DNA of 59,723 nt, from the NCBI RefSeq assembly GCF_006345805.1, contig NW_021832581.1, forward strand, positions 1 to 59,723, in the 5' to 3' direction. The notes under the pieces are model-generated. The model saw only the letters and a program-made list of their open reading frames with translations, did no database searches and was not told the origin of the DNA. Within the stretch, counting starts at the first letter, position 1. Each line of letters starts with the position of its first letter. This DNA is from Octopus sinensis. Lineage: Eukaryota. The translations under genes and the position numbers were made by a program. This document shows, one piece after another, positions 3,219-37,922 of this stretch.

Positions 3219-3418
3219 TTACTTTGCGTCTAATGACAGACATTCCATCGCAGCAAAACATTCAGCTTCTTCAAGAGCTGCACTTAATGTTGCGTGTGTC
3301 CGTGTTTCTGGGTCGCAATTTTTGAACCATTCGTAAAGAATCTGGTAGCCTTGTTTTACAGTGACATTAGACTCATCATCAATTTTCAGTTTAGTTGTAT
3401 CAACTCCTAAAACAACAA
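3219..3418 (-). CDS. Terminal death-domain exon (V)[65 protein letters not shown]
   Basis: ttttgcAG acceptor, phase 1; ORF 3219..3512; Q-x-Y-x-I-L-x-x-W and T-x-x-x-L-x-x-A-L death-domain patterns; TAA stop. Confidence 0.88.
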
Positions 3419-6400
3419 CTGCAAAAGACACAACAATAAGAAATAAATGCAACAACATTGACAATAACATAAAACGCTGTGTACTGTAGGTTGTTATGAA
3501 TATAACAAACAAACTTTATCAATAGAGAAGTAAAAAAAGAAATAGCTAAGAAACATGAAAAATATAAGACATTGTTTTCTATTGACAAAAATTACAAAGA
3601 GTTTGAATTAAACGAGATTTTTAAAGAAAATTAATTGAAAATTATACTTGAGAAAATATATGGTAAACGAGGGCAGGAAAACTTTTGTGAAGGCAAAAGT
3701 ATATCAGAACCTCAAGAATTAACATTGACCTCCAACAGTGAAAGCATATGATCCATCCATTTCCTCTGCTCAATATTCTTGAAAGGGCTGTGGGGAAAGA
3801 GTCCTCAGGCACCTCCTCCATAGGGTCCTATCAGAAGCATCCATCATTAGACATTCTGCTTGTATTCTATGATGTGAAGAACTAAGACTATGGATATCAT
3901 CCAACCATTTCTTTCTTGGCCTCCCCCTCGGTATCGTGTTCCATTGGTTTGACTTTGAGAACCTGTCCTGTAATTCATTGCTGCAACACCCTGATCACAT
4001 GTCCGAGGTACCACAGATGTGGAGGAGACGTGGCTCAACCTGGAGAGACTCCCAGATCTCTGAACTGTAAATCCTATTGAGTACCAAAGACCCTTTAGAA
4101 GAACCCCATACATCTGTCATATTCTGTTAGATTTCAGAACTGGTATTCAAAGGGTCATGAAAGTACTGTCCCTCAGTGTCATCTACTACCTTGCAAAGAT
4201 CCCAAGAGGACACTGGAAATCGAATGATCAGTGATTGTCCAACAGTCGATAATTCTAAGTCAAATTCAATCCCATTTTAAACTTCTCCAATGAACTCCAG
4301 GTTCGATCAATTCTACAGAGCCTATTCAGTTATTATTATGTCAGTCTGAATGAGAGATGCCCCCTGCAGTTCGGCTTGACTTGTGAATGTTCATTTTCTG
4401 GTAAATTCCCTTAAAGGAATTCTCTGTTTTCGCCTGAGGAGAATGATAGGATTTCGCTGTGTCACCTTTATTAAATCTCTTTTTATTGAAGCATTTACAG
4501 ACATATGTCATGTGGTAAAGTCATTGCAAAATGGCAAAATAAATTGGAATTATCAGCTTCCAACACAATAACCCAATAAATAATGGCTGCAAGAAGAACC
4601 AAACTCAAAGTTTTCTGTTGAATAAGATTCTTTGTTTTAGATGTGAACTTTGGTACTTGTCCTTCATTACAATAACCTAACAGTGAACCTAAAGAAAATG
4701 TAAAACAAATTCACTCACCTGTTTACCCTTAAACAATATATTTTAGTTCCTCTTCCAAAAGATAATATTAACGCCATTTGTGTTTTCTAGTTTATCCATT
4801 ATTACCAACCATGCTAACCTCAGTGGATATTTTATGAAATATCAGGAATATCGTAAATAAAATTGTCATACAGGTAACCTATCAATTGGAAATGAGGAAT
4901 GTAACTTGTTCTCATTCATTCTGACAAATAAAATAGATCAGGTGAAAGTAAAATATATAGAAATCAAATATACTCACCTATTTGCCACCAATCACGTCCT
5001 AACCTCTTAGCCACTCTCAGAAGATCCCTCTCCTTCAGAACTGGACTCTCTGAAATAAATATTTCCAGCTTTTATAATTGATTGTAAAACTTATTTATCT
5101 CTATAAATATTCTGTAGTTTATTGTTGTGGGACATTGTTATCATCAGTGGTTGGCTGGTGACCACTAGGGTTTTGCTCAGTATTTTTATACTTTCCATTG
5201 TGGGACCAGGTAATAGCTCAATATTTAGGCCCGCAACAAAATAGACTAACTTTCCGAAACCTTGTTTCTCTTTAACAGAGACATCCTACATAATCTAACA
5301 ATGTTGCAATTATTTCATTTAATTATCATTTCATGAGACTGTTTCTTCTCATAGTTCTCTCTCTCCTTTCATATATCTGTACCAAATCTATGACATGTGA
5401 CTGTCCTCTGAACTCTACACGTCACTAACCACCATTCTCCTCATCTTCTGCTAAAGTCCAATATCATCCAATGTGGTCTCCAAAGATCTCGTCACAAATG
5501 CATGACACACCACTTCAAGTAAAATAAACGTAATACCTGTTCTCTTTGCTGTTGGTAATCTTGAATTTTATCATCCCACATCTCAGTTCACCTGGTCATT
5601 ATCTGGTACAGGGAATATTTTAAGACTCCTTAATAAAGGTGAGCAATGATCAGTTCTCCAAAGATGAAACAAAAAGTGATATCAGGTGTCCTAAAACACT
5701 GTACACTTGTACAAAACCCCATTCACTACATACAACTTGACATCTACACATTATTGCAGGGAAGACATCTGAAATGGTACAAAAGGACTGATACTCAAAA
5801 ATATATAAGAAAGACGGGAATACAAAGTGCGAGCTCCAAATCTTTTATTTTCCAGAATGTTTGGCATATTTATTTCTTTTAACCCATCTTCGTTCTGTGA
5901 CTTGATCTCAATGACTTTACTCTTATTGCAAAATTAGGTAGTGTACCATCGTCGTAATAGTTTTTCAAGTTTCCCTTTAAACTTCATCAGGGTTTCTCCT
6001 GCTATTTTGACCTTCACTTGTTTCTGCTGACCTTTCACAAATGACGGGCTGCATTACTCATTTGCATTGAACCACATTCTTCACCAAGTTCCTCAGTCTA
6101 CCCAGTTAATCCAGAACTATTTGCATATCCTTTTATTTGTTGTTACTATTGTTATGTAATCCATTAATGTCTTCTCGAGTGTTTTCCTTTGAGCCATTTC
6201 TTATCAATCTGCTGATTTAAGTAACCTCTCCATAACAATCACAAACCAAATGACTGATATTGTAGAAACTACAGCAATTCCTGCTTCAAAATGATACCAG
6301 TCTGCCGAGAAAGTTTTCCTCATGAACTGCATATCGAAATTGTTATAGCAGCTCCTCATCAGATCCTTAATCTTTTCTCATATATAAAACAGGTCCACTG

Positions 6401-9400
6401 CTTCCATCAACAATTTGTTTGCTAGAGAACCATAAACCAGATCAAATCACACAACATTCAATCCCTTTTATTCTTCTTTCCGTCTTGTATCACATCCTAG
6501 ATTTAAGACACATGTTCCACACAGCCAGGAATGCCAGAGGATTCCAGTCTTCGAGATACTTTTAGTCCCATATTCATTATTCTGTAGATTTACAGTTGAT
6601 CTCTTTGTGAATACAACCTTGTAAATCTTGCCATTTATATTCAAGGTTGAAATTAGTCTGAACTAATCAATCGGTATTTGATTGCTGGTTTCAATGGACA
6701 TTTCAAACTGTCTATGAATGGGAATCATTGCTTTTGCTTTGGATCTCCTGCATATATCCATCCAGTTCATCTTAATGTATTTTAGCTTTCTGTTCTCAGT
6801 ATCTGCAAACAGAATTTCCTTGTAGAAGTTAAAGAGGCGTTTAATTTTGTTGACGACATGATCATTTTTCTAGGGCTTTTGGAGCAAGATTGTGCCCAAG
6901 GCCCTTTTTAAAGTGGTTGATGTTAGGAAAGGCACATCACCATAGAAAAGCCGGAATGTGTTCCTCATCCAATCAAGGCGGACAGTATTTGTTAATAAGA
7001 ACTGACATGGATAGGAATCATCCATCCAATCGATAGGAGCATAGACATCAGATGATAAATGATGAGGGTCATCAGTGTCTATCTTGGAGAGAGAGGGAGA
7101 GAGAGAACGGTTGTCTCAACATCAAACCTAATACTTTTACATGAATAAAGACAATGTTTAGGGGATGTAATGATAAATTTATTATCAGTGAAAAAAAAAA
7201 GGCAGGGTGTTCACATAAGGAACACATTTCATTGTAAATCTGTCACATTATGAGAGATATTTGCCTAAATAGCAACAACAGCAATAACCTATCAGTAAAC
7301 TTAGTAACTACATATTTTAGTCCTCCGTTTCAAAATACAGTATTAATTCTATTGTCTTCTAAATTATCCATTTTCCGAACCATGCCAACCCCGTTGGATA
7401 TTTTGTGAAATTCCATTGATATCAAAATGTCTAATAGAATTATTATACAGCTAATATTTCAGATGTAAATTAGGAATGGATCTTGTCCTCAGTCATTCTG
7501 ATAAACTACAAATGCTCAGGTGAAGGTTAAAAATATAGAAATCCATGAGGTACTGTTATTTGCTACTCACCAACTGGCTGTGATGTTGTCAAGGCATCCT
7601 TCACAGAAGTTGGAGTCTTACGTTTTATAGTATAATTTCATTATAGTTATTGATAATCAACACTTTATTATTGTGGGAAGGGCATACAGCTGTAAAAACT
7701 AGTTCGTAGGGATGTGGTTGTGTACCCATGTAAAAGTTATGTTTACTTTGAGGGTAACAAGGTGTAAAATATCAGATGAGGGTACAAGATAATGCTATGA
7801 AACATTCACAAAAACAAGTTTAAGAGAGTTAATGAATGATAGCTGATTAATTATCATGTTAATGCGGCGTATAAACACTAACTATCAATATAGATTGTAT
7901 AAAATCTGTGTGAAGAACATGTGACATTTGTTACATTAATATGGTTGTGTCTCAGCACAGTTGATATTATGGTAGTTCCATGAGAAACCATAGAAAAATG
8001 TAACATTTCCAGTACCGAATACTAATGATGAATTCTTTTCTTGGTCAAATAACAATGACCAGGTTCCATGATCTAATTTCACAACATAACAATCAAGTCG
8101 GAAGTAAAACCAAAATGTGAAAGACTGAAAACAGTGACTCTCTTACAATTGAAACCATCTCAAAGCCAACAATTGTCAGTATAACGATGTCTATATATGG
8201 ACAAGAAACGTTATTGAAACATCGTAACAAGCGATAATTATATATATATAGTTAGAAAAGAGTTGTGAGTTCAAGTCACACTGGAATCTCATACGTTCAT
8301 TCCTTTCCATGTATTGCATATGTTAGCATCAATGTTTTGTTCAAATGTGAACATATGTTCTCTGTTCAATATGAATGTTATCAAAATCACTGAACCGGTT
8401 TTCACAATCGATATTATTATACTGAGCTAATATGTTATACCAGACAGGAAACTACTGTAACAATCTAAGACAAAGAATTATGATGAGTTACTGGAAGACA
8501 TCATCATCATCATCAACATTCAAAGTTTGTTTTCCATGCTGGAATGGGTTGGAAAACTTGACAGGATCTGACAAGCCAGACAACTGCACCAGGCCCCAGA
8601 TGGTTTCTTTGGCATGGTTTTCTATGGTAGGATGCTCTTATTGATGCCAACCACCTCACAGAGTGTACGTGGCCCCTTTGTGTAAAGCACAAGTACTGGC
8701 ATATTTAGCCAAAAGACATGTAAGACAAAGACCCCACAGCCGGGAGAGGGGGTATCGCAAATTTCTCTCCCCGCATCCTGATTCTTTTGTCATCACATTC
8801 CCTTCTCACCTCCTGAAAATGTCATCAGCTTCAGTGAAGCAAAACATCATAGAGTAGTGAGGACCGTCTAATTATATAGAATGTAACACAACTTGATTAC
8901 TACTTGTGCTATAATTAAATGCTCCCAGAACACACTAGGAAGTGGTTGGTGGAAACTAGGAAAGATGACACCACAAGTTTGAAAGGAACGTTTGATATTG
9001 TTGGGAAATTGATGATCATTTCTAATGCTTGTGCGACAATAAAATATACCCAGGACCCTTTATAAAGTGGTTGGGGTTAGAAAGGGTCTACCACCTTAGA
9101 AAAGCTGCAATGTTTAAGTGAGATGTTTTCCTCAACAAATGACGGTTGGCAGTAATTTCAGATACAACTGACTTGGACAGTGATGACCCACCTAGTGTAT
9201 GGGAGCATGGAGAGCAGATGAGAAAAGATGAAGATGATATCATTTATTGTATTGAAACTTTTAACCAGCATCTTTCTTGAAAAGACGGAGAGAAAGAGCA
9301 TGAGTGAGAGAGAGAGAATGAATGAGTACAATGAGATGACAAACAGGGCGAATATTCTCCTTAACGGGAGAGAACCGTTTCAGGGTTTATATTTAATTTT

Positions 9401-12400
9401 TGTATCTTTCTTTCTGCGAGTGAATGAGTAACTGATGTTTGCATAAAGTACATTTATTGGATATTCGTGTTGTTGTAGAAGAACAGAATTTCTTTATAGC
9501 TAAGCATTCAAATGAAATCTAGCATTGGAACCTGTTCTCGGTCATTCTATTGACCAAAATAGCTCAGTAAAAGCTAAAATTTATAGAAATCAATTTTGTA
9601 ATGTCATTCTATACTCAGCACGTGGCCCTTCTACTGTCTGGACCTCTTTGTCTTCAAATATTGGCCTTGCTGAAATAAATATTTCCAAGATTATACTTTA
9701 TAGTAAAATTTCTTTAATGAACATCGATATTTTATAATTGTGAAATATTCCTATAACCAATAGTCAAGATTAACCGTCCCAAATCCCCCCACTCTGTAGG
9801 TAACGAAGGGCTTCTCCCTAAGAGTGGAAAGCAGATTGTATGAGACTTGTGTACGGACATATGTACAACACAATAATGAAAGATAGGCTGTGAAGATAGA
9901 AGACATGCAAAGGGTTGGAGACAAATGAAGCCAGCATGCTCCACTGGATGTACAACATCAGTGTTCAGGTAAGTCACAGTGGAAATGTCTTAAGAGAAAA
10001 TCTGGGTATAAGAGTCATCCGATGTAGAGTTCAAAAGAGAGATCTTTCATAGTATGGTTATGTGATGCATATGGATGAGGTGATCAGCATAAAGAGATGC
10101 GGATCTCTAAATGTGGAGAGAAGCTGAGGAAGAGGAAGACTGAGGAAGACATGGGACAAAGTGGTGAGAAATGATGTTCAGATGCTGAGCTTCACACGGG
10201 AAGATAACTAAAACGACTGAGACAATCAGCAATTTTCTGTGCTTGAAAAGACCCAACTGGCTAAGTGACATCGAGGCCATCAAGGCATGTCCTTTATGTG
10301 CATACCTTCAACCCTGAACACAATCTGTCCCCTAAAAAACATCCCCATTAACCTAGAAACCATACACTCTTTCCCCACCATGATCCTTAAAAGGTGTAAA
10401 ATGTTAGGTGAGGGTACACGATGTTCCTATGACAAAATAAGTTTACATTTCAGACATACAAATGTAAGAGAGTTAATGAATTATAGCTTATTAATTATCA
10501 TGATAATTGGGTACATATGTGATACAATGGCACTGTGCTTGACGGTGCAATACTAGATATTAATATAGATTGTATATAATCTGAGTAAAGAACATATAAC
10601 CTTCATTACAATGAATATGATTGTGTCTCAGCAAACGAAGAAAGATATAACCAAGTCCACTGCCAAATACTAATGATTAATTCATTTCCTGGTCAAATAA
10701 CAATGACTATCTTTCATTAAATAATTTGAACGCAACGATGTCAGTGTGCACACAAGGCAGAGTGAAGAGGCCTGAGAGAAGTGTTAGACATAAGAAGCAT
10801 CAGATGTGGTGCACAAGAGAGACAACTGCACTGGTATGGTCATGTGTATGGATGAGAAGAGCCGTGGGAAGAAGTGTTGCACCCTAACAGTGGAAGGAAC
10901 CCGTGGAAAGGGGTGGCCCAGGAAGACAGGGCATGACGTGGTGAAACGACCTTCGAACGTTGGGCCTCACAGAGGTAATGGCAAGAGACAGAGACCTCTG
11001 TAAATATGACGTGATTAAGAGGACTTGGCAAGTGAAGTGAGATCACAGCTGTAGCCTATACCAGTGGCGCATAACCAGCCCTTTTTAAAAGTACCCTTGA
11101 ATCACAGAGTGATAAGTTGCGCTTGAGAAGAATTTCTGAGTCAAGTAAAACCAAAAACCAGAAATCACAAATCAAAATCAAATCAAGATCGAAATCAAAA
11201 TGGAAATTGTAATTATGGCCGATGCCAGTGCCGCCTGGCTGGCACCCGTGCCGGTGGCCCGTAATAAGTACCATTCAAACATTATTTGTTGCCAGTGCCG
11301 CCTGACTGGTTCCCTGTGCTGGTGGCACGTAAAAAACACCATCCGAACGTGGTCAATGCCAGTTCCAACTTCAACTGGCCCCTGTGTCGGTGGCACGTAA
11401 AAAGCACCCACCACACTCTCGGAGTGGTTGGCATTAGGAATGGCATACATATGTGGAAACCTTGCCAGATCACATTGGAGCCTGACGCAGCCTACTGCCT
11501 TGCCAGTGAAATCGTCCGACCCATGCTACTATAAAAACGGACGTTAAACGATGATGATGATGAGGAGGATGATGATGATGATGTTGATGATGAGTTCCAT
11601 GACCAAATGACAATATTAACTCTATTGTGTCTTCTAATTTGAACATTATTACCAACAGCATTAACCTCAATGGGTATTTCATAAACTCTCAGTAAATCGA
11701 TATCTTTAATTCAATTATTATACAGATAATCGTTCAATTGGAAAATAGGAATGGAAGCTGTTTTCAGTTATTCTTTCGAGCACAATATACTCGGGGGAAG
11801 AAAACCTTACAGAAATCAATTGGGAACTATTATTTTATACTCACCAATTGCCTGAGATGCAGCCCCTAATTCCTGACATGTAGCCTCTGTTTGTACACAC
11901 CTGTCCTCAAACTTTGGAGCCTCTGAAATAAATATTTCCAAGTTTTACATTTAATACTAAACTTTCTTCATCTTTATTTTTATTAAACCCTATCTTTTTA
12001 TCGTGAGACATTCAATTCCTGTTGTTATTGGTCAAATGTTGACCATTATGGTTTTGGTCAATATTTCTGTACTTTCTACAGTGGTCCCATGTAATAGCTC
12101 AATATGACCACAATAAAACAGACTATCATTTCTAAATCCACCCTCACTTCTCTCTCTCTCTCTCTCCCTCTCTCTAAAAACACATTAAATATTCAAACAA
12201 TGTTGCAATTATCTTGTTTAATTAACACTTGATAAGAGTTTTCTCTTAGCTTTGTCTTTCTTTTCTTATAACTGTGCCACAATTATGGTATGACACAGTC
12301 CTCTCATCTCTAGAATTCACTAATCAACATTCCTCTCTAATTAAGTAAAACTGAGCCCATAAAGACATGTCCTTTATGTGCATACCCTCCATCCCACACA

Positions 12401-14591
12401 CAATCTGTCCCCTAAAAATCATCTCCACAGCATGATCCCTAACAAGGTGCAAAATGTAAGGTGAGGGTACACAATGTTCCTATGACAAAATAAGTTTACA
12501 TTTCATACATACAAATGTAAGAGTTAATGAATTATAGCTTATTAATTATCATGATAATTGGGTATATATGTGATACAATGGCACTGTGCTTGACGGTGCA
12601 ATACTAGATATCAATATAGATTGTATATAATCTGAGTAAAGAACATATAACCTTCATTACTATGAATATGATTGTGTCTCAGCACAGCTAATATTATCGT
12701 AGTTCCATGAGCAAACGAAGAAAGATATAACCAAGTCCACTGCCAAATACTAATGATTAATTCATTTCCTGGTCAAATAACAATGACTATCTTTCATTAA
12801 ATAATTTGAACACAACAATCAAGACCAGGGTGAAACACTCAGAAATTGTGCCTCTTTTAGCATTAATATCATCTAAAATCTAACAAGTGTGAGAAAAAGA
12901 ATGACTATATGGATGGTAAATGTTGTTCAAACAATAATGTGTAATAAGTTATATATAGTTACAAACAGGATTTGTGAGATCAAGTCACACAGGGAACTCA
13001 TATTTTAATTCCTATTTTATATTTATGTCAACACCAATATTTTGTTTAAATGTAAACATGTTCACCGTTCAATACTAAAGTTAATATCTAATCAACGTTA
13101 ATGATCATTATACTTATAATCTTAGAGATTTGATTTTTAATGTCTTTAATTTATAGCAAAGTTATTCTGACCTGAGATATTCAGGGTACGTACCTAAACA
13201 ACATATCATGACAGACATCTGGCTACATAACAACAACAACAACAATAACCTATGAGAAAACTTAGGAAAGACCTTAGTAGTAAAAGAAACAAAATCTTTC
13301 TCTCGTTAACTCACCTGTTTACAAATAAACACAAAATGTTTTAGTTCTCTGTCCTAAAGACATCATTAACTCTATTATGTCTTCTTATTTAACCATTTTA
13401 CCAACACGTTAACCTTGATTTATGAAATTTCAGTGGAATATTTAATAGAATCCTTTTTACAGCTAATGCGGAAACTAGGGATTGACGAGCGATTATAAGA
13501 GTTGAAGAGGCCCTGTAGTAAGGTGAGGATCGGCAATGGGTATAGTGAAGAATTCCGGATAGAAGTAGGAGTTCACTAGGGATCATTCCTAAACCCCTCG
13601 TTTTCATCATAGTCCACCAGGCAATAAGAGAAATGACAAATCAAAAGCAATTCAAGATCGAAATCAAAATGGAAATTGTAGTTGTGACCGATGCCAGTGC
13701 CGCCTGACTGGCACCTGTTCCTGTGTCACGTTTAAGTACCATAGAAGCATAGGTCCTTGTCACTGCCGCCTGACTAGTTCCCTGTGCCGGTGGCACGTAA
13801 AAAGCACCATCCGAACGTGGTCGATGCCAGCCCCCCCCCCCGACTGGCTCCTGTGTCGGTGGCAAGTAAAAGGCACCCACCACACTCTCGGAGTGGTTGG
13901 CATTAGGAATGGCATACATATGTGGAAACCTTGCCAGATCACATTGAGCCTGGCGCAGCCTACTGCCTTGCCAGTGAAATCGTCCGACCCATGCCACGAT
14001 AAGAAACGATGTTAAATGATGATGAATGATGATGTTCTGTGACCAAATGACAAAATTAACTCTATTGTGTCTTCTAATTTGAACATTATTACCAACAGCA
14101 TTAACCTCAATGGGTATTTCATAAACTCTCAGTAAATCGATATCTTTAATTCAATTATTATTCAGATAATTGTTCAATTGGAAAATAGGAATGGAAGCTG
14201 TTTTCAGTTATTCTTTCAAGCACAATATTCTCGGGGGAAGAAAACCTTACAGAAATCAATTGGGAACTATTATTTTATACTCACCTATTGCCTGAGATGC
14301 AGCCCCTAATTCCTGACATGTAGCCTCTGTTTGTACACACCTGTCCTCACATTTTGGAACCCCTGAAATAAATATTTCCAAATTTTACATTTAATAATAA
14401 AATATCTATATCTTTATTTTTATTAAACTCTATCTTGTTATTGTGAGACATTCAATTCCTGTTGTTATGGTCAAATGTTGACCATTATGGTTTTGGTCAA
14501 TATTTCTGTACTTTCTACAGTGGTCCCATGTAATAGCCCAATATGACCACAATAAAACAGACTATCATTTCTAATCCATCACTTCTCATCT

Positions 14592-14644
<53 letters not shown>

Positions 14645-16134
14645 TAACAATTATACTCATGCAATTATCTCATTTAATTAACACTTGATGACAGTTTCTC
14701 TTCATTGTCTTCTTTTCTTATAACTGTGCCAATCTATGGCATGGCACAGTCCTCTCATCTCTAGAATTCACTAATCAACATTCCTCTCTAATTAAGTAAA
14801 ACTGAGGCCCATAAGACATGTCCTTTATGTGCATACCCTCCACCCCGCACACAATCTGTCCCCTAAAAATCATCTCCACAAGCCAAATTCCATACACCCT
14901 TCCCCAACATGATCCCTAACAAGATATAAAATGTAAGGTGAGGGTACACGATGTTGCTACGACAAAATAAGTTTACATTTCAGACATATAAATGTAAGAG
15001 AGTTAATGAATTATAGCTTATTAATTATCATGATAATTGGGTATATATGTGATACAATGGCACTGTGCTTGACGGTGCAATACTAGATATCAATATAGAT
15101 TGTATATAATCTGAGTAAAGAACATATAACCTTCATTACTATAAATATGATTGTGTCTCAGCACAGCTAATATTATGGTAGTTCCATGAGCAAACGAAGA
15201 AAGATATAACCAAGTCCACTGCCAAATACTAATGATTAATTAATTTCCTGTTCAAATAACAATGACTATCTTTCATTAAATAATTTGAACGCAACGATGT
15301 CAGTGTGCACACAAGGCAGAGTGAAGAGGCCTGAGAGAAGTGTTAGACATAAGAAGCATCAGATGTAGTGTGCAAGAGAGACAACTGCACTGGTATGGTC
15401 ATGTGTATGGATGAGGAGAGCTGTGGGAAGAAGTGTTACACCCTAACAGTGGAACGAACCCGTGGAAAGGAGTGGCCCAGGAAGACAGGGGATGACGTAG
15501 TGAAACGACCTTCGAATGTTGGATCTCACAGAGGTAATGGCAAGAGACAGAGACCTCTGGAAATATGATGTGATTAAGAGGATCCGGCAGATGAAGTGAG
15601 ATCACAGCTATAGCCTATACCAGTGTCGCATAACAAGCCCTTTTAAAAGTACCCTTGAATCACAGAGTGATAAGTTGCGCTTGAGAAGAATTTCTGAGTC
15701 AAGTAAAACCAAAAACCAGAAATCACAAATCAAAATCAAATCAAGATCGAAATCAAAATGCAAATTGTAATTATGGCCGATGCCAGTGCCGCCTGGCTGG
15801 CACCCGTGCCGGTGGCACGTAATAAGTACCATTCAAACATTGTTTGTTGCCAGTGCCGCCCGACTGGTTCCCTGTGCCGTTGGCACGTAAAAAGCACCTT
15901 CCGAACGTGGTCGATGCCAGCCCCAACTTCAACTGGCTTCTGTGTCGGTGGCACGTAAAAAGCACCCACCACACTCTCGAAGCGGTTGGCCTTAGGAATG
16001 GCATACATATGTGGAAACCTTGCCAGATCACATTGGACCTGACGCAGCCTACTGCCTTCCAGTGAAATCGTCCGACCCATGCTACTATAAAAACGGATGT
16101 TAAACGATGATATGAGGATATATGATAAGATGAG

Positions 16135-16166
<32 letters not shown>

Positions 16167-19100
16167 GTGACCAAATGACAAAATTAACTCTATTGTGTCT
16201 TCTAATTTGAACATTATTACCAACAGCATTAACCTCAATGGTATTTCATAAACTCACAGTAAATCGATATCTTAATTCAATTATTATACAGATAACGTTC
16301 AATTGGAAAATAGGAATGGAAGCTGTTTTCAGTTATTCTTTCAAGCACAATATACTCGGGAAGAAAACCTTACAGAAATCAATTGGGAACTATTATTTTA
16401 TACTCACCAATTGCCTGAGATGTAGCCCCTAATTCCTGACATGTAGCCTCTGTTTGTACACACCTGTCCTCACACTTTGGAGCCCCTGAAATAAATATTT
16501 CCAAGTTTTACATTTAAAAATAAACTTTCTTCATCTTTATTTTTATTAAACTCTATCTTGTTATTGTGAGACATTCAATTTCTGTTGTTAATGGTCAAAT
16601 GTTGACCATTATGGTTTTGGTCAATATTTCTGTACTTTCTACAGTGGTCCCATGTAATAGCCCAATATGTCCACAATAAAACAGACTAACATTCCTAAAT
16701 CCACCCTCTCTCTCTCTCTAAGAACACATTAAATATTCTAACAATGTTGCAATTATCTCATTTAATTAACACTTGATGACAGTTTTCTCTTAGCTTTGTC
16801 TTTCTCTTCTTATAACTGTGCCAAATCTATGGCATGGCACAGTCCGTCTCATCTCTAGAATTCACTAATCACATTCCTCTCTAATAGTAAAACTGCGCCC
16901 ATAAAGACATGTCCTTTATGTGCACCCCCCACCCCGCACACAATCTGTCCCCTAAAAATCATCTCCACAACCAAATTCCATACACCCTTCCAACATGATC
17001 CCTAAATCCTAACAAGGTGTAAAATGTTAGGTGAGGGTACACAAGGTCCTATGACAAAATATGTTTACATTTCATACATACAAATGTAAGAGAGTTAATG
17101 AATTATAGCTTATTAATTATCATGATAATTGGGTATATATGTGATACAATGGCACTGTGCTTGACGGTGCAATACTAGATATCAATATAGATTGTATATA
17201 ATCTGAGTAAAGAACATATAACCTTCATTACTATGAATATGATTGTGTCTCAGCACAGCTAATATTATGGTAGTTCCATGAGCAAACGAAGAAAGATATA
17301 ACCAAGTCCACTGCCAAATACTAATGACTAATTCATTTCCCGGTCAAATAACAATGACTATATTCTATTAAATAATTTGAACGCAACGATGTCAGTGTGT
17401 ACACAAGGCAGAGTGAAGAGGCCTGAGAGAAGTGTTAGACATAAGAAGCATCAGATGTGGTGTACAAGAGAGACAACTGCACTGGTATGGTCATGTGTAT
17501 GGATGAGGAGAGCTGTGGGAAGAAGTGTTACACCCTAACAGTGGAACGAACCCGTGGAAAGGGGTGGCCCAGGAAGACAGGGCATGACGTGGTGAAACGA
17601 CCTTCGAACGTTGGGCCTCACAGAGGTAATGGCAAGAGACAGAGACCTCTGGAAATATGACGTGATTAAGAGGACTCGGCAAGTGAAGTGAGATCACAGC
17701 TGTAGCCTATACCAGTGGCGCATAACCAGCCCTTTTTAAAAGTACCCTTGAATCACAGAGTGATAAGTTGCGCTTGAGAAGAATTTCCGAGTCAAGTAAA
17801 ACCAAAAACCAGAAATCACAAATCAAAATCAAATCAAGATCGAAATCAAAATGGAAATTGTAGTTGTGACCGATGCCAGTGCCGCCTGGCTGGCACCTGT
17901 TCCTGTGTCACGTAATAAGTACCATAGAAGCATAGGTCCTTGTCACTGACGCCTGACTAGTTCCCTGTGCCGTTGGCACGTAAGAAACACCATCCGAACG
18001 TGGTTGATGCCAGCCCCCACCCTGACTGGCTCCTGTGTCGGTGGCACGTAAAAAGCACCCACCACACTCTCGGAGTGGTTGGCGTTAGGAATGGCATACA
18101 TATGTGAAAACCTTGCCAGATCACATTGCAGCCTGACGCAGCCTACTGCCTTGCCAGTGAAATCGTCCGACCCATGCTACTATAAAAACGGACGTTAAAC
18201 GATGATGATGATGATGAGTTCTTGACCAAATGACAAAATTAACTCTATTGTGTCTTCTAATTTGAACATTATTACCAACAGCATTAACCTCAATGGGTAT
18301 TTCATAAACTCTCAGTAAATCGATATCTTTAATTCAATTATTATACAGATAATCGTTCAATTGGAAAATAGGAATGGAAGCTGGTTTCAGTTATTCTTTC
18401 GAGCACAATATACTCGGGGGAAGAAAACCTTACAGAAATCAATTGGGAACTATTATTTTATACTCACCAATTGCCTGAGATGCAGCCCCTAATTCCTGAC
18501 ATATAGCCTCTGTTTGTACACACCTGTCTTCAAACTTTGGAGCCTCTGAAATAAATATTTCCAAGTTTTACATTTAATAATAAAATTTCTTTATCTTTAT
18601 TTTTATTAAACTCTATCTTTTTATTGTGAGACATTCAATTCCTGTCGTTAATGGTCAAATGTTGACCATTATGGTTTTGGTCAATATTTCTGTACTTTCT
18701 ACAGTGGTCCCATGTAATAGCTCAATATGTCCACAATAAAACAGACTAACATTCCTAAATCCACCCTCTCCCTCTCTCTCTCTCTCTCTCTCTCTGTCTC
18801 TAAAAACACATTAAATATTCTAACAATGTTGCAATTATCTCATTTAATTAACACTTGATAACAGTTTTCTCTTAGCATTGTCTTTCTTTTCTTATAACTG
18901 TGCCAAATTTATGGCATGGCACAGTCCTCTCATATCTAGAATTCACTAATCAACATTCCTCTCTAATTAAGTAAAACTGCGCCCATAAAGACATGTCCTT
19001 TATGTGCATACCCTCCAACCCGCACACAATCTGTCCCCTAAAAAGCATCTCCACAAGCCAAATTCCATACACCCTTCCCCAACATGATCCCTAACAAGAT

Positions 19101-22100
19101 ATAAAATGTAAGGTGAGGGTACACGATGTTCCTATGACAAAATAAGTTTACATTTCAGACATACAAATGTAAGAGAGTTAATGAATTATAGCTTATTAAT
19201 TATCATGATAATTGGGTATATATGTGATACAATGGCACTGTGCTTGACGGTGCAATACTAGATATCAATATAGATTGTATATATCTGAGTAAAGAACATA
19301 TAGCTTCATTACAATTATATATATGAATATGATGGTCTCAGCACAGCTAATATTATGGTAGTTCCATGAGCAAACGAAGAAAGATATAACCAAGTCCACT
19401 GCCAAATACTAATGATTAATTCATTTCCTGGTCAAATAACAATGACTAACTTCATTAAATAATTTGAATGCAACAATCAAGACCAAAGGGTGAAACACTC
19501 AGAAAACTGTGCCTCTTTTAGCATTAATATCATCTAAAATCTAACAAGAGTGAGAAAAAGAATGACTATATGGATGGTAAATGTTGTTCAAACAATTAAT
19601 GTAATAATGTATATTATATATAATTACAAGAAGGATTTGTGTATTCAAGTCAAATTCAATTTCTGATTGTATATTTTGTATAAACACCAATAATTTGTTT
19701 AAATATAAACAGATATTCACGGTTCAATACTAAATTTAACATTTAATAAAATTAAGTTCATGATGAATATTCTTATACAGAGTTAACATTTAATTAGAAT
19801 TTTCTAATTTGCAACTACAAAATGTATTCTAACCAGAGACATTCAGGGTACACAACCCCAGAAAATACAACATATTACGACAGACATCTGGCTACATAAC
19901 AACATCAAGAATAACCTATCAGAAAACTTACGAAAAATCTTAGTAGAAAAACAAACAACTATCTTATTAACCTAGGTTTTACACCTAAAAAATAACATTA
20001 TGTTCCCTCTTCCAGAAGACAATATAACTCTATTGTGGCTTTTAATTTATCCATTTACCAAACATGTTAACCATGACTTTATGAAATTTCATATTTTTAA
20101 TACAATTACTTTAGAGCTAACCTTTCAAATGGAAATTAGAAATGGGATTTGTTCTCCACCATTCTAATACGCAAAATAGCTGAGGTGGATGTACAATCTA
20201 TAGAAATTAATTAAGTTCTCTAATTTTAAACTCATCAACTGTCTCTGCCACAGTCTGCACTCCCTTCTCTTCAAACTTTGGACTCTCTGAAATATGTGAC
20301 TCCAAGTTTTATATTTATTTATAGCACAATCCCTTTATATTTATTAATAATCTATATTTTATTATTGAGAGACATTCATACCGTCAATGGCCAACCGGCG
20401 ATCATAATGCTTTTGGTCAATATTTTTATACTTTCAACAGTGGACCCATGTAATAGCCAATATTTAGCTCCAAAACGAACTCTAGTTGATCTTTGTAAAT
20501 TTCCTCTCTCTGTTAAGATATCCTACATAATCTAACAATGCTGTAATTATATCATTTAATTATCACCTAATAACAGTTTATCTGTAGGCTTTGGTTTCCT
20601 TGCTTATATCTATGCCAAATCTATTGCATTTTCAAAACCCTGATCTTCACTAACAACCTGTTTGATTCCAGTGTCAACAAATTTATTCATCAAAGATATA
20701 ACAACAAACACATGTCACAACCACTTCAAGTAGGTAAAACATACACCTAATCTCTTTGTTAAACATTGTTGCTGATAATCCCTAATTTTAACTTCACAGT
20801 TCACCAGAATGCCATCTTATTCAGGAAATATTTGAAGGTTTCATGATCTGGTTGGAATGTGACACTCAAGTCAGAACCAAAACCTAAATTTGAGAGACGG
20901 ACAAAACAGTGTCTCTGTTAGCCTTGATATCACCCAAAGACCAACACAGCAACATGGAGTTGCGTGTTGAAGTCTCAAACACAGGTGACACATACATTTT
21001 ACTCCTTTAAAATATTCTACTAATTTTAATACTTTACCAAAGATGACACTGATGTCCTTGTAAGTACTGTTGTATTTACTTATCTTCTAATAACTCATAA
21101 TTAATTATAGAGTTGATGGAGATTTATTGATACTTCAGTTACTCACTAATTATCTTGCAGAATCCTCCATTATTTTTATGTTGCAGACTACAACCCTCTT
21201 GAAGTGTGACATGTTTCCTACTTGGATAAGGTCAATGTTTAGTGGATGTAGTGTGAGAGATATACTATTACAGAGAACAGACACTAGGAACACCTTTTAT
21301 CATAAATCTGCCAGATTATGGCAGACCTCTGTCTACATAACAACATGAAGTATATTATTCTACACAATAAGGGCAATGGGACAAGCAGGACAAACAGACA
21401 GATCAGCAAAGATTTTCTTACCAACTCGACCTCTGCTTGTTACAGGTTTTAAACACTTCAGACATTGTTGAAGTGGAACGTTTGAACATCCCTTACATAT
21501 TACAAGGTGTCCACATGGATGGACTTTTGTTGTGGCCGCTTTATTTCTGCACCACAAACATCTGTGGACAAAACAGAAACATCCAATCAATAACATTCAT
21601 TTATAACAAATATTACATTATTTACATGTTCGGAATAGAGAATATTATAAGATACATCAGTAACTACCAAGAGTACAGCAGAAAATCTTCTTTAAACATT
21701 ACATACATACAGATATTTGTGTAGTTAAATGGCATGCTCACACACCACACACATACATACATACACACACATGCATACATACATTGATAAATGTTTGTCT
21801 TGACCCTGACACATCATAGAAATTTGGTTGACACACAGTGAACTACATATATTCCAGAAATATATTTCACTTCTAACATCGAACTCATTTCTTCTGAAGA
21901 AATATATCTACACAGGTTTCTTTATATACACATACTGTATTGTATACATCCCGTCAACACAGATTAGCAGATGAGGTTTCCAGCACTGCAGAGTGGCAGA
22001 AATTACCCGAAACTAGTACTGGTCAGCTAGACACATCCCTAGAAGATGGTAGGGGTTCGCTCCCTGCTGCTCAATTTATCGGATGCAGTTCCGCATTGTT

Positions 22101-26053: not shown

Positions 26054-28076
26054 TTGTGTGTATATTTGTCTGTCTGTGTTTGTCCCTCCACCATCGCTTC
26101 ACAACCAATGTTGGTGTGTTTACGTTCCCGTAATCTAGCGTTTCGGCAAATAAGTACTAGGCTTACACAGAATAAGTTCTGGGGTCGATTTTTTCGACTA
26201 AAGGCAGTGCTCCAGCATGGCCGCAGTCAAATGACTGAAACAAGTAAAAGAGTGATATTTAAATTTCAACAGACAAAGAAAGTTTTGTATATTCACTGAG
26301 GGGGAAATGTGTCTGCTTCTTAAGTAGCTAATACAGAGAGATGTATGGCAAAGAAATTGCCAAATCTTATAAAATACGGGAGTGAAAGGCGACTAAAACA
26401 CCTAGTAATGGTATATGTGTTACTTGAATTATTTACGTTTCCTGGCAGGTTTTTTTTTCTATGAAGATATGTGGCAATATTCCATCAGTATTTGCAGAAA
26501 TATAATATATACACAGTTGGTGTGTGTTTGTAGGTTATTTTTCTATGAAATCATTCTTAATATTGACTGATTCGGACATAGAAGAGTGAGAAAAAGATGT
26601 TGGTAGACAGATAAATTCCACTTAATTCTAAGTAACAGTCTCAAAATGGAATTCATTCACTTCATTATTTAGATCTATATTTTCCTATTGATCACAAATC
26701 TTTAAAATAGGGAACGAAGAGGGGTAGGTTGGGGTGGACAGTGAAGTATAACTGGCAACACTACGAATCATGTGAATGTAATCAAAATCGTGTTCTTTCT
26801 TTGATCTCCTGACAACTGCATATTGTTTATTGTGTGGCCTTTGACAAAAACACTAGCGACAGTATAATGTATGGTAGAATTAAAACGAAATAAACATATA
26901 AACATGATTATATACAAAATAGAAAATGTACTGGTTTATCTGTTCCATTGCCAGGAAATACTTACTGTGGTGGTAAAACGCTTCTAATTTTCTTCTCAAA
27001 TTTGGGTCCTTAATGAGGTCCAATGGTGTGTTATTTTGTTGTTTTTATGGTGAAAGTCCGCTCCCTGGCTGGCGAGATATCCCGAAACTACTACCCAGAG
27101 AGCATTTCATCCTCTTCAGGTTAAGGGAGTGCAGCACTACAAATGATGAAATATAAAATGATGACAATATTACACAAATATTCAAAACAAATGCCCCTAA
27201 TTACACAAAAGTTCATCTAAATTTACTATAGGTTGTTTATCCACCAATTAAAGCAATTACAAAGTATTGAGTTCCTACATAATCTTTAATTGAGTCCATT
27301 TCCATTTTCATGTTTTTACTTTATTTTCAACACTGAGACACCCTCTAATATATTGTCATTACATTGAGCAGGACAAACCGTATTGATTAACATCAAGCTT
27401 ATTGTTAATTAATGAGTAATATTTACTTGTCAATCATATCACAATATATTCAATAGAAAAATCAAATATAGGAAGAACAAACCAACAAGAACCTATCTAT
27501 ATAATTGGCTTGATAAAGGCGAGCATGTGGCCATAAGAAAGAGTATTGTATATATAAATATAACACAACATGAGAAGAAAGAACATAAGTTATATCAGAA
27601 ACAAAAACACCTATAACATAACAAAGTCAATACCACACAGACATAACCAAACATATCAATAATGTTTCCATAATTAAGCAAGAAGCATCTTTGAATGATG
27701 ACGGTAAAGTAAAGGAAGCAGGAATTAGTGTCAAGTCAGAAGAGTAATGGAGGAGTATTTTTAATCACGGACAAGTGAATTTTGGAAGAGGCGACTTGCA
27801 AGTCTACCAGATAGATGGAAGAGCATTGTAGAAAATGAAGGAGAATATGTTTTAGATTAACAGAAAAAAGTACTTTGTTTATCTTAATTTTGAAAAATAT
27901 AAGAATTATAAAAAACTGCTTCATTTATGAGATGACAGCAAAAAGTCCAGTAGTATTGAAGTCCATACTGTTGATGACATCAGATAGCCGAATACAGTAA
28001 ACGGGCTTTAAACAGCATTTTACAAGATATATACTCAAACTGAAAATCATTACTTGTGTGTGTTTGTGTGTGTGAG

Positions 28077-28696: not shown

Positions 28697-29377
28697 ATAT
28701 ATATATATATACGCAAACAATTTAAAAACTTACTTCGTTTAGTAAATCCAAGGGTGCATCCTCGGAATCAAACACTTCTCTTTCCACGGCCAGGTGCAAA
28801 CAGCTGTTACCTTCACCATCAACAGCATTTATGTCTGCACCCAGTGCTATTAGCTTGTGTGTCATTCCGAGGTGACCCCGGGAAACGGCTTCAAGCAATG
28901 GTGTCCTTTCCTTTTTATTCTTAATATCCAACTGAAGTGAACCCTTTGTGGAAGTAAAAATAGAAAATGAAAATTTACATGAAAATCAGGATGGATATCA
29001 ATGTGTCATTATTGTCTTCTACTGTATACTTGATCAAACTGATCATGTACATTTGATGTTTGTCCGTAAAATCAACCTTCGTAAGATCCTCTAGATGTTG
29101 CTATGAGAATGTGTTCTAGACAGGATAAAGATGTCCTAAATAGATTGTTTCAGCTTAATCTACCTTTCTTCCTAACTATAGTAAGTTTTAGGGGAGCTGA
29201 ACACGAGTGAACACATGATTAACAGATCAAGACTAGTAAAGAAGAATCAAAATTTCTAAAGTATACTTTTGATGTTGCTATAATTAATAAGAGGTTCATA
29301 AAACTGTTGAGGTGGTTAGTGTCCACCACCATGAAATTAATGCGCGTGCACACACACATACACAGAGACACACTCAA

Positions 29378-32207: not shown

Positions 32208-34586
32208 ATAGAAAGAAAGAAATAGATAGACACACACATCCATATATACATGGTTGTAGTGTAAGGAACATTTTTCCCAGCCATACACTCTTCCACGTTG
32301 AATCCCTCTGCATGGAAACTCAGGCAAGTATATTCTACCCTTACCTAGGGCTGAACAAAATCTTATAAGCGGATTTGGGAAATGAAAACTGAAAGAAGCT
32401 TCATAACAGGTGTGTGTCTATGTGTGTGCCTATGTAGGTGTGTGTGTGTGAGTTAGTGTTTGCATATGTGTGTGTGTGTGTGTAGCGGTTCGGTAAAGAG
32501 GCTGAGAGGATAAGTGATATGCTTAAAATAAAAGAAAGGACTGGGATCGATGCAGTTGACTAAAAATTCAAGGTGATGCCCCAGCATGGCTGCAGGCAAA
32601 TGTCTAAAACAATTAATATATATATATATACCTGATGTCTGTTATATTTTGGTTCATCTCATAATGACCTTGTTTCATTTGACCATTAAAAATATTATTA
32701 TCAGTGGTGCTGGTCAGTTGGACTGTCCACACCGCTAATATCAACATCAACATGATCAATATACAATTCCTCCACAAACACAAGGCTTTTGTAGTACATG
32801 TGATTAAATCTATCCCCATTATTTCACTGGTACATTGGTAATATTTATAGTATACAGATCAATATAATACTGGAGAGTGTATATAATATGTATTTATTAA
32901 CTAACCTGCTTCAGCAATAGACACACCAATTCATAGCTTTGCCTGAAAGTAATGGATGAGGAAAGAAAAACATGAATAAAAAAACAAACATTACACAGCT
33001 TGAGATAATAATTATTAGGTCATTAAAGAAAACAAATGTAATTAGGTAACAATAACTTAATTACAGCAGTTAGTACACACATACTCACACACACATATAT
33101 ATTTATTCAATACACACTCTACACAGTAGAACAATGATATATAAACCCCTGAGTAAACCCAGAAATGTAAAGACAGGAAAAATACTGCTAAGAACTCTGA
33201 CAGCTTATATAAACATGAAATTTAGGAAGGAAAGAAGGGCTACAGGTAATCATATGGACCCCAGTACATGACTGGTATTGTATTTTATCAACCTTGCAAA
33301 GATGGAAGGAGAAGTTGACCTTGGCAGGATTTGAACTCTGAACGTAAAGAGTCGTAAATAAAATAACACAATTTATTTCCTCTGAAAGTAATTAGAAACA
33401 AGAACAGGAGAAAAGAAGGAAGACAGTTTATTAAAGGAACCCCTGGGTATTACTGGTACAGATTATATTGACCCCAAAGTGATAGTAAATATTCTGGTAG
33501 GATTTGAACATGGAACATAAAGAGACAAATGTAAATACTGTAAGGGGATGATTCTGTATTTAGCCCAGGGTCAGAGTAAATAGGGAAACTACAAAGGAGA
33601 GAGAGTGAGGAAGAAGAGAGAGAGAGAGAGAGAGAGGAGAGAGAAAGTAGTTCTAGATGGGATGAAAGGAAGAAGAGAGAGGATTTGAACCTGTGACGTT
33701 GAAGAAATGGAGAACGAGATGAAGTAAAGTGTCCAATCAGGCAACAACAATAACAATTATGGTGATGATTAATTAATAAAGTAGGTTACAGTGCGAAAGA
33801 GAGAAAAAAGACAATGACCCCGTGGTGGGATTATGACATGAATGACTGAATGAAAAAGAAATAAACATTATTGAAAACATAAAAGAAACAGATTTGGATA
33901 TTCCAGATCCAATGGGAACTTACTCCTGAACTGCCACATGCAGTGGTGTGTCTCCATCGTTGTCTACCACATTGGCATCGATGCCATTGTGACCCAACAA
34001 CAGCTCGACAATGTGCAAGTGTCCGGACGAACAGGCGAAGTGCAGCGGTGTTTGACCATTTACATCTTGAGGATTAACCTGAAAAAGAAAAGAATAAAAA
34101 CATTAAAAATGGTGTCTGAAAGGGGAGTCGGGTGGTGAAGAATTAAAAGAAAAACTCACAGAAAAAGAGAAGAGAAGGAATGAAATTAATTAAACAGGTG
34201 GAATGATTGGGGTGGGGAGTAGGTAATGCAGATTTCTATTGTATATACACACACGCGTATACACACATACATATGTACATATAAATATATTTATACACAC
34301 ACACAAGCACACGCATATAGGATGAATAACTCAATAAATAAACACATAGAGCAGCAAAATGTGTATGTGTGTGTATGTGTGTGTGTTCATAATTACATTT
34401 ATTCTTTTATTCTTTCATTTGTTTCAGTCATGTGACTGTGGCCATGCTGGAGCACTGTCGTTAGTCAAGCAAATCAACCCCAATAAGCCTAGTACCAGCA
34501 TCGGTTGTCAAGCGATGTTGGGGGACAAACACAGACACACAAACACACGCACGTACACAGACACACCACACACACATACATATATA

Positions 34587-36193: not shown

Positions 36194-37628
36194 CAACTAA
36201 TATAGGATGAATTTTTTTTACAGAAAAAATATTCCATCAAAAATGTGGCAGCATATTAAATACTTTACAGTTAATTATAAACAACTTATAAATAAGGGCT
36301 AAAGAAAAGTATTTCAATGCCAATTTGCTGATAACAGACTTTTAAATCGTCAATTTCCACATATTATTTACTCGCTACAGAAAAAAAACACGAAGAACTG
36401 AAATCGGGAAAAGCCGGACGATAGAATGTTTTTTAAAAAGTTCGTTATTTCTATATTGAATCAATTTTGGAATTAATCTCATAATAGATTCTTTCGTCTT
36501 CAGTAGAACATACGAAAGGATATAAATAAGATACTTACGTCACAACCCCGAGATAGTAAGATCTCCACAGCATGAGGTTGATCACTGAGAGTAAAAGATA
36601 GAAACATTGACTAATTTACATTAAATATGAAAATATTTTGGCTTTGAGACGAAACATTATCGTCATCATCATCACCATCATTATCACCTGCACTATTATC
36701 ATCAATATCATGCTCATCAACATCATTACCATCATCCTCATTGCCACCACCTCCATCATTGACATAATCATCATCATCATCATCGCCATCATCATCATCG
36801 CCATCATCGCCATCATCATCATCGCCTTCATCATCATCACCATCTTCATCACCTGCACTATTATCATCAATATCATGTTCATCAACATCATTACCATCAT
36901 CATCATCATTGCCACCACCTCCATCATTGACATAATCATCATCATCATCATCGCCATCATCATCATCGCCATCATCGCCCTCATCATCAATCGCCTTCAT
37001 CATCATCACCATCATTATCACCTGCACTATATCATCCTATTTGTTCATCACATCATTACCATCATCACATCATTGCCACCACCTCCATCATTGACATAAT
37101 CATCATCATCATCATCGCCATCATCATCATCGCCATCATCGCCCTCATCATCATCGCCTTCATCATCATCACCATCATTATCACCTGCACTATTATCATC
37201 CATATTATGTTCATCAACATCATTACCATCATCCTCATTGCCACCACCTCCATCATTGACATAATCATCATCATCATCATCGCCATCATCATCATCGCCA
37301 TCATCGCCATCATCATCATCGCCTTCATCATCATCACCATCTTCATCACCTGCACTATTATCATCAATATCATGTTCATCAACATCATTACCATCATCAT
37401 CATTGCCACCACCTCCATCATTGACATAATCATCATCATCATCATCGCCATCATCACCATCATTATCATCACTATCATCATCATCACCATCATCATCATC
37501 ATAGCCTTCATCATCATCACCCTCATTGCCAACACCATCATCATCATTATCATCTTCGACATCTCCAATATCATCATAATCAATATTATCATCATTCATT
37601 ACCACTATAATCATAATCATCACCATCG

Positions 37629-37661
<33 letters not shown>

Positions 37662-37890
37662 CCGCATCTATCATCATCATCAACATCATCATCAACAGCA
37701 AGATCAACCTCATCAATATCATCATCATCATAATAATAACATCATAATCATCATCATCATCGTCATCATCACGATAATCATAATAATCATCGTCGTCATC
37801 ATCATCATCCACATCATCATCATCATCATTATCATCATCATCATCATCATCATTATTATCAATATCTTCATCATCTTCATCATCGTCGTT

Positions 37891-37922
<32 letters not shown>

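What the first reader, a model, noticed from the sequence alone, without database searches (positions are those of the whole stretch)
9619..20286. Each linker exon encodes one LC8/DYNLL-binding-like motif (DRCVQTE x4, [14 protein letters not shown])
Seen: DRCVQTE is invariant in the four 78-bp copies although 8 other sites vary (5 replacement, 3 silent). The much more diverged 51-bp copies still keep [DE]-K-x-V-Q-T. Established: dynein light chain LC8 binds [DS]-[KR]-x-[TVI]-Q-[TV]-[DE] motifs in disordered regions, dimerises its partners, and binds multivalently to ASCIZ and Nup159. Inference: one exon adds one LC8 site, so exon number would set dimerisation strength of a RING/death-domain protein, both of which commonly act as oligomers.
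Basis: partly seen in the sequence, partly recalled or inferred. Interest (0 to 1): 0.82.

Follow-up and report, generated by a model that had tools for sequence, protein, structure and literature searches.

The report
Death-domain exon copies became LC8-type sites
In a large octopus gene family (ankyrin, RING, death domain), copies of the first death-domain exon form a linker whose conserved K/R-x-V-Q-T motif likely binds the dimerising hub protein LC8; this gene has four such exons with normal splice sites, not six.

Summary
The peptides and the 8 variable sites (5 replacement, 3 silent) are as described, but invariance among the four 78-nt copies is chance-level (P 0.07-0.18). The two 51-nt copies have lost their GT donor, so four exons are live, not six. 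The gene belongs to an Octopus ankyrin-RING-death-domain family (129 death-exon matches in this genome), labelled MIB-like. The linker exons are duplicates of death-domain exon 1, sharing up to 700 bp of flanking intron. Across 19 old exon types the motif codons are constrained at protein level (divergence 0.22/0.31/0.49 by codon position against 0.38/0.40/0.44; Gln kept in 17 of 19; permutation P about 0.002-0.11). The motif also occurs in O. bimaculoides, in a linker predicted disordered, and DKGVQT matches measured LC8 binders. LC8 binding is therefore likely but untested. The idea that exon number sets dimer strength is weak: only 52 of 141 live linker copies, and 6 of 56 in the largest arrays, keep the motif, and the recent 78-nt copies lose it as fast as flanking codons.

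The parts
45748..45819 (-). first coding exon (approximate end)
   Evidence: tblastn to paralogues P0025/P0032, weak, E 0.07-0.27
38573..38734 (-). ankyrin exon (approximate bounds)
   Evidence: tblastn
36533..36583 (-). part of an ankyrin exon (approximate)
   Evidence: tblastn, weak
33926..34081 (-). ankyrin exon (approximate bounds)
   Evidence: tblastn
28734..28943 (-). ankyrin exon
   Evidence: Pfam Ank_4 E 1.3e-11, tblastn
26976..27136 (-). ankyrin-like exon, frame broken by about five single-base deletions against paralogues
   Evidence: assembly error or pseudogene not decided
21422..21561 (-). RING finger exon
   Evidence: Pfam zf-C3HC4_3 E 2.3e-7, over cut-off; splice sites read
20236..20286 (-). 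51-nt linker exon copy (EKGVQTV), donor reads AT: likely dead
18468..18545 (-). 78-nt linker exon 1; DRCVQTE at 18528-18508
16408..16485 (-). 78-nt linker exon 2; DRCVQTE at 16468-16448
14285..14362 (-). 78-nt linker exon 3; DRCVQTE at 14345-14325
11845..11922 (-). 78-nt linker exon 4; DRCVQTE at 11905-11885
10262..20120 (.). tandem duplication of 2.1-2.4 kb units (83-93% alike), each carrying one 78-nt exon
9619..9669 (-). 51-nt linker exon copy (DKEVQTV), donor reads CT: likely dead here, GT in 3 of 16 copies
7571..7618 (-). 48-nt linker exon remnant without motif, acceptor missing
4978..5049 (-). death-domain exon 1 (72 nt), homologous to the linker exons
3219..3418 (-). death-domain exon 2 and stop codon

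Best explanation
The repeated exons are duplicates of the gene's first death-domain exon that now encode a linker predicted to be unfolded, whose conserved K/R-x-V-Q-T motif likely binds the LC8 dimer and would hold two copies of this ankyrin-RING-death-domain protein together. Shown: the homology (exon and flanking intron), phase 1-1 symmetry that lets copies be added or skipped in frame, and protein-level constraint on the motif across old exon types. Inferred: the direction (domain exon first, linker later), LC8 binding as a beta-strand, pairing of two chains just behind the RING, and a resulting boost to ubiquitin-ligase or death-domain signalling (RING dimer activation is recalled knowledge). 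Selection appears to keep one or a few sites per gene; the recent multiplication of copies, including the four here, looks close to neutral, so exon number is not a tuned dial, though it would still change the number of sites.
For: Homology: 4755-5437 aligns at 67-69% over 546-747 columns with the flanks of all four 78-nt exons, 4722-5391 at 69% with the 20286 copy; exon-only scores beaten by 0, 3 and 29 of 1000 shuffles; 72-nt linker types of the same length as the domain exon exist. Constraint: 19 types from 112 live rows, nt divergence by codon position 0.22/0.31/0.49 in motif codons against 0.38/0.40/0.44 elsewhere; Gln kept in 17 of 19 (neutral simulation 8.0, P 0.02); [KR]x[TVIS]QT in 11 of 19 (simulation 1.9, 0 of 400); codon-subset permutation P 0.005-0.07 for residue identity, also without the window's own types; no such signal at the same columns of domain exon 1. 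O. bimaculoides proteins carry EEKEVQTV, TKQVQTV, EKGVQTV, SDKGVQTV; 34 million years apart by PMC10700109. AlphaFold2 leaves exactly that linker (386-456) unfolded, pLDDT 26-28. Measured binders ZFPM1 SDKGVQTP, gephyrin EDKGVQCE, MAST1 RHQSVQTE, syntaphilin QERAIQTD (PMC6607443 Table S4); DRCVQTE meets each position rule of that paper. The genome encodes an LC8 83 of 89 identical to DYNLL2, residues 33-89 identical. Annotated paralogues and spliced joints in contigs of guessed-RNA runs include 78-nt-type exons.
Against: No binding shown. Only 52 of 141 live linker copies hold the motif, 6 of 56 in the CPK-type arrays; 6 of 24 live 78-nt copies have lost it, and in that clade motif codons vary as much as others (3 replacement variants over 4 codons, 16 over 21). 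Thr+1 alone is not significantly conserved (P 0.19), nor are -4 and +2 by identity; the position-1+2 versus 3 permutation gives P 0.002-0.11. AlphaFold2 puts 2 of 3 intact DRCVQTE motifs of paralogue P0022 into low-confidence helices (pLDDT 46-66). Of 19 matrix-predicted peptides only 7 bound in PMC6607443, and DAZL VDRSIQTV with Val at +2 did not. 35 of 74 family proteins have no motif. This copy may be a pseudogene.
Confidence: 0.55

Rival explanations
1. The linker exons are tolerated, functionless spacers: decayed death-domain exon copies that splice in because they keep their splice signals; the LC8 likeness is an accident of one ancestral copy inherited by all.
For: Non-motif codons diverge about equally at all three positions; many copies have dead donors or lost motifs; 78-nt clade shows 19 replacement to 5 silent variants; death-domain exon 1 itself can read EEKCLQDV, two residues from the motif.
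Against: Motif codons keep residues while third positions vary; chance per position of [DE][KR]x[TVI]QT is about 7e-6 at family composition; the two lineages that replaced Val-1 and kept QT use Thr and Ser, both found in binders (only two cases).
Confidence: 0.25
2. One reading: every linker exon adds one LC8 site and copy number is selected to set dimerisation strength.
For: Four live identical motifs 26 residues apart here; annotated isoforms differ by single linker exons (P0005-P0008, P0096/P0208/P0209); multivalent LC8 clients are known (PMC12057147 passages).
Against: The largest arrays mostly lack the motif (6 of 56); recent copies lose it at the background rate; two of six exons here lack donors.
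Confidence: 0.12
3. The conserved element is a site for another partner, for example a caspase cut (x-Q-T-D/E, like Bid LQTD, recalled) that frees the death domain from the RING.
For: Site lies in a flexible linker between RING and death domain; VQTD or VQSD in 4 of 19 types.
Against: The would-be P1 residue (+2) is not conserved (identity 0.23 against 0.32 neutral), while Gln, Val and Lys/Arg are.
Confidence: 0.08

Closest known systems
LC8/DYNLL recognition motif clients (ZFPM1, gephyrin, MAST1; multivalent ASCIZ, Chica, Nup159)
   Same: D/E-K/R-x-V-Q-T-D/E sequence, in a linker predicted disordered, several copies per chain
   Different: Binding not measured; each motif sits on its own exon that derives from a folded domain's exon; many copies decayed
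Mind bomb E3 ligases MIB1/MIB2 (database label of the family)
   Same: Ankyrin repeats followed by a C3HC4_3-type RING
   Different: No MIB-HERC2, ZZ or SH3-like domains among Pfam hits of full-length paralogues; single RING; C-terminal death domain
Death-domain superfamily (Fas, FADD, RIPK1, ankyrin DD)
   Same: Profile hit to Fas DD E 6.9e-6; model aligns to FADD DD, Z 12.3, rmsd 2.0, 85 residues
   Different: Its first exon has been duplicated repeatedly into non-domain linker exons

Membership tests
LC8-binding motif | Anchor [TVIS]-Q-T at -1,0,+1 | tested here: met
   VQT in all six window copies; rules from PMC6607443
LC8-binding motif | Polar -4, large or basic -3, non-aromatic -2, D/E/P at +2 | tested here: met
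   Met by DRCVQTE; the two 51-nt copies have disfavoured Val at +2
LC8-binding motif | Located in disordered sequence | tested here: inconclusive
   Unfolded in O. bimaculoides P0096; pLDDT 29-66 with low-confidence helices in 78-nt-type P0022
LC8-binding motif | Better conserved than flanks | tested here: met
   Met across old types (moderate P); not met within the young 78-nt clade
LC8-binding motif | LC8Pred score over thresholds | not tested
   Predictor not available; not rebuilt
LC8-binding motif | Physical binding to LC8 as a beta-strand | not testable with these tools
   Needs ITC, pull-down or a structure
Mind bomb (MIB1/2) | N-terminal MZM and REP domains (recalled architecture) | tested here: not met
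   No such Pfam hit in P0004 or in precomputed domains of 84 relatives; none mapped in the window
Mind bomb (MIB1/2) | Ankyrin repeats plus RING | tested here: met
Death domain | Sequence profile and helical-bundle fold | tested here: met
   (PF00531 in relatives); the closest subfamily is under Pfam's cut-off

The most novel reading that the evidence does not exclude
A short linear motif was born inside a duplicate of a folded domain's exon: an octopus death-domain helix-1 exon turned into a one-exon LC8 docking cassette, which duplication and alternative splicing now add to or drop from a family of over 100 RING-death-domain genes, switching them between LC8-dimerised and free forms.
Probability: 0.45. 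Interest if true: 0.72.

Novelty: new variant of a known kind. Interest (0 to 1): 0.52.

Why it matters
If binding holds, it is a dated, many-copy natural series of a linear motif arising from a domain exon, being kept in some lineages and decaying in others, with measurable intermediates (for example EKCLQDV, EKAVQTV, EKAVQAV, EKAVKTV). It would also give LC8 a role on a RING-death-domain ligase family that my searches did not find described. LC8 motifs themselves are common and well known, which caps the surprise.

Tried and rejected
Complex prediction of octopus LC8 (2 copies) with the P0022 linker 160-245 (2 copies): no verdict, score 0.33 against a mark of 0.34, one control 0.35; not used either way. 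Foldseek on the whole P0022 model gave no match at E<=0.001. No run was on record as RNA; the four laid runs are guessed RNA, contigs only, and near-identical paralogues cannot be told apart, so joints are family-level. No displayed joint used the 20286 copy, but 108 joints were not shown. One joint in X9 links the 9669-type exon to death exon 1 with one differing letter; it may come from a GT-bearing paralogue. One search held one mis-registered row and one frameshifted row; superseded. Invariance within the window was rejected as evidence. Retention of VQT in the two donor-less copies was rejected as evidence of present selection. LC8Pred was not run. Earlier scan findings: nothing. Literature searches with no relevant hit. 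Whether the frameshifts at 27136-26976 are real was not tested with reads.

Full report
Gene. The window is a whole contig of G000. It holds one minus-strand gene: ankyrin exons from about 45.8 kb to 27 kb, a RING exon (21561-21422), the linker region, and two death-domain exons (5049-4978, 3418-3219). Death exon 2 has 129 matches among 150 candidates scored in G000. Its named relatives are Octopus sinensis, O. vulgaris and O. bimaculoides proteins labelled MIB1/MIB2-like (36 hits, 84). They lack the N-terminal Mind bomb domains (architecture recalled; Pfam), so the label is a resemblance. The death domain is supported by a profile hit to Fas DD (E 6.9e-6) and a fold match to FADD DD (Z 12.3, rmsd 2.0, 85 residues). 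The exon at 27136-26976 carries about five single-base deletions against paralogues; three other loci show their own single-base indels there, which fits uncorrected assembly errors, but a pseudogene is not excluded.

Observation. The four 78-nt exons, the invariant DRCVQTE and the 5+3 variable sites are exact. The invariance is unremarkable: P 0.07 by nucleotide, 0.18 by codon. The 51-nt copies read ATGAGT and CTGAGT where paralogous exons read GTGAGT. The 20286 type has no GT in 8 of 8 copies; the 9669 type has GT in 3 of 16. A seventh, motif-less 48-nt remnant at 7618-7571 lacks its acceptor. So this gene likely encodes four motifs, 26 residues apart.

Expression. Annotated paralogues contain one to four 78-nt repeats and isoforms that differ by single exons. 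Contigs of four runs from four studies, guessed to be RNA, show joints RING to 78-nt exon (3 of 4 runs), 78-nt exon to death exon 1 (3 of 4) and death exon 1 to 2 (3 of 4, counting both joint positions). These are family-level, since paralogues are over 92% alike.

Origin. The linker exons are homologous to death exon 1. The region 4755-5437 aligns at 67-69% over 546-747 columns with the surroundings of each 78-nt exon, and 4722-5391 at 69% with the 20286 copy; exon-only scores were reached by 0, 3 and 29 of 1000 shuffles. In register, [14 protein letters not shown] of the domain faces [14 protein letters not shown]. Elsewhere in the family, domain exon 1 reads TPKLEEKCLQDVA and 72-nt linker exons read SPKFEDKGVQSD or SPKFADKGVQTD. 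In a tree of 186 rows (111 columns, many forks open) all domain exons and two motif-less linker types fall on one side of a branch with 93/75 support, the QT-type linkers on the other. That fits one origin but is unrooted; the direction is inferred from the age of death domains.

Selection. I scanned 141 stretches (1.28 Mb, window included), mostly chosen by nearness to death exon 2; 20 were chosen by likeness to the 9669 copy and 13 short ones as its close matches. This gave 233 exon-like hits, of which 223 were kept. The pattern missed the window's own death exon 1 type and the motif-less 66-nt and one 48-nt type seen. After dropping one mis-registered and one frameshifted row, 112 live QT-side rows formed 19 types. 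Nucleotide divergence by codon position was 0.22/0.31/0.49 for positions -3, -1, 0, +1 and 0.38/0.40/0.44 for the other ten codons. Gln was kept in 17 of 19 types (simulation mean 8.0, P 0.02), the motif [KR]x[TVIS]QT in 11 of 19 (1.9; 0 of 400), mean residue identity 0.60 against 0.34 (P 0.0025; 0.015 without rate calibration). Permuting codon subsets gave P 0.005-0.07 for residue identity and 0.002-0.11 for the position contrast over three clustering cut-offs, with or without the window's types; with the two motif-less types added, 0.016-0.047 and 0.011-0.072. The same columns of the domain exon show no such pattern (P 0.49-0.76). Thr+1 alone, -4 and +2 are not significant. The signal is moderate, and the short alignment makes the tree rough.

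Against the dose model. Of 141 live linker copies 52 hold the motif; in the CPK-type arrays 6 of 56; among live 78-nt copies 18 of 24, with 3 replacement variants over 4 motif codons against 16 over 21 others, and 5 silent. Of 74 family proteins (isoforms redundant) 39 have at least one motif; all 61 motifs lie in the linker, none in 23,640 residues outside.

Fit to LC8. PMC6607443 (read: parts 2-4 of 8 of the text, supplements 1 and 3) lists binders SDKGVQTP, EDKGVQCE, RHQSVQTE and QERAIQTD, and gives position rules that DRCVQTE meets; Val at +2, as in both 51-nt copies, is disfavoured, and only 7 of 19 predicted peptides bound. PMC12057147 and bioRxiv 10.1101/2023.09.15.557927 were seen as passages only; the preprint's supplements were not seen, nor Tables S1-S3 of PMC6607443. 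G000 encodes an LC8 identical to DYNLL2 at 83 of 89 residues. O. bimaculoides proteins, 34 million years away (PMC10700109 passages), carry the motif in up to four different exon-sized units (P0096, P0208, P0093, P0106), while others have degraded or no motif (P0081, P0082, P0053, P0084). AlphaFold2 leaves the P0096 linker wholly unfolded, but gives low-confidence helices over two of the 78-nt-type motifs of P0022. The window's own spliced protein was not folded; P0022 stood in.

Mechanism. Most likely (0.55) the LC8 dimer binds the motif on two chains and pairs them right behind the RING, favouring RING and death-domain dimers. Homology, exon phase and constraint are shown; binding and its effect are inferred. 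One or a few sites per gene seem to be what selection keeps, while copy number drifts by tandem duplication of 2.1-2.4 kb units here and 154-166 bp units in other genes.

Novelty. LC8 motifs and multivalent clients are known. I found no paper on this octopus family or on a motif arising from a duplicated death-domain exon (open-access library only). Rated a new variant of a known kind, interest 0.52.

Noticed in passing
window 26976-27136: Coding exon with about five single-base deletions against paralogues; assembly error or pseudogene undecided.
   Followed up: partly
window 22703-23881 (-) and about 39800-40944 (+): Two reverse-transcriptase-like open frames in introns, similar to each other; LINE-like by recalled motifs.
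   Followed up: no
window 36655-38368 and 41725-43841: 1.7 kb CAT-rich array with a 165-bp period and a pyrimidine-rich 124-bp satellite inside introns.
   Followed up: no
window 11160-11560, 13629-14030, 15718-16160, 17811-18220: A high-copy interspersed repeat with internal 68-bp units sits in each duplicated unit.
   Followed up: no
L032, L035, L036, L040, L042: Paralogues with arrays of up to nine 51-nt exons at 154-166 bp spacing, mostly without the motif.
   Followed up: yes
P0059 (O. bimaculoides); L110, L114: Some genes hold two intact-looking death exon 1 copies, which could allow alternative death-domain N-termini.
   Followed up: no
P0104 (O. bimaculoides): A protein labelled GPR126-like adhesion GPCR ends in a death domain related to this family's.
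   Followed up: no
G000:C1:41735547-41762728 and 107091609-107100340: Tandem arrays of death exon 2 copies with stop codons.
   Followed up: no
G000, family PF01221: 22 LC8-family matches, several on small contigs.
   Followed up: no
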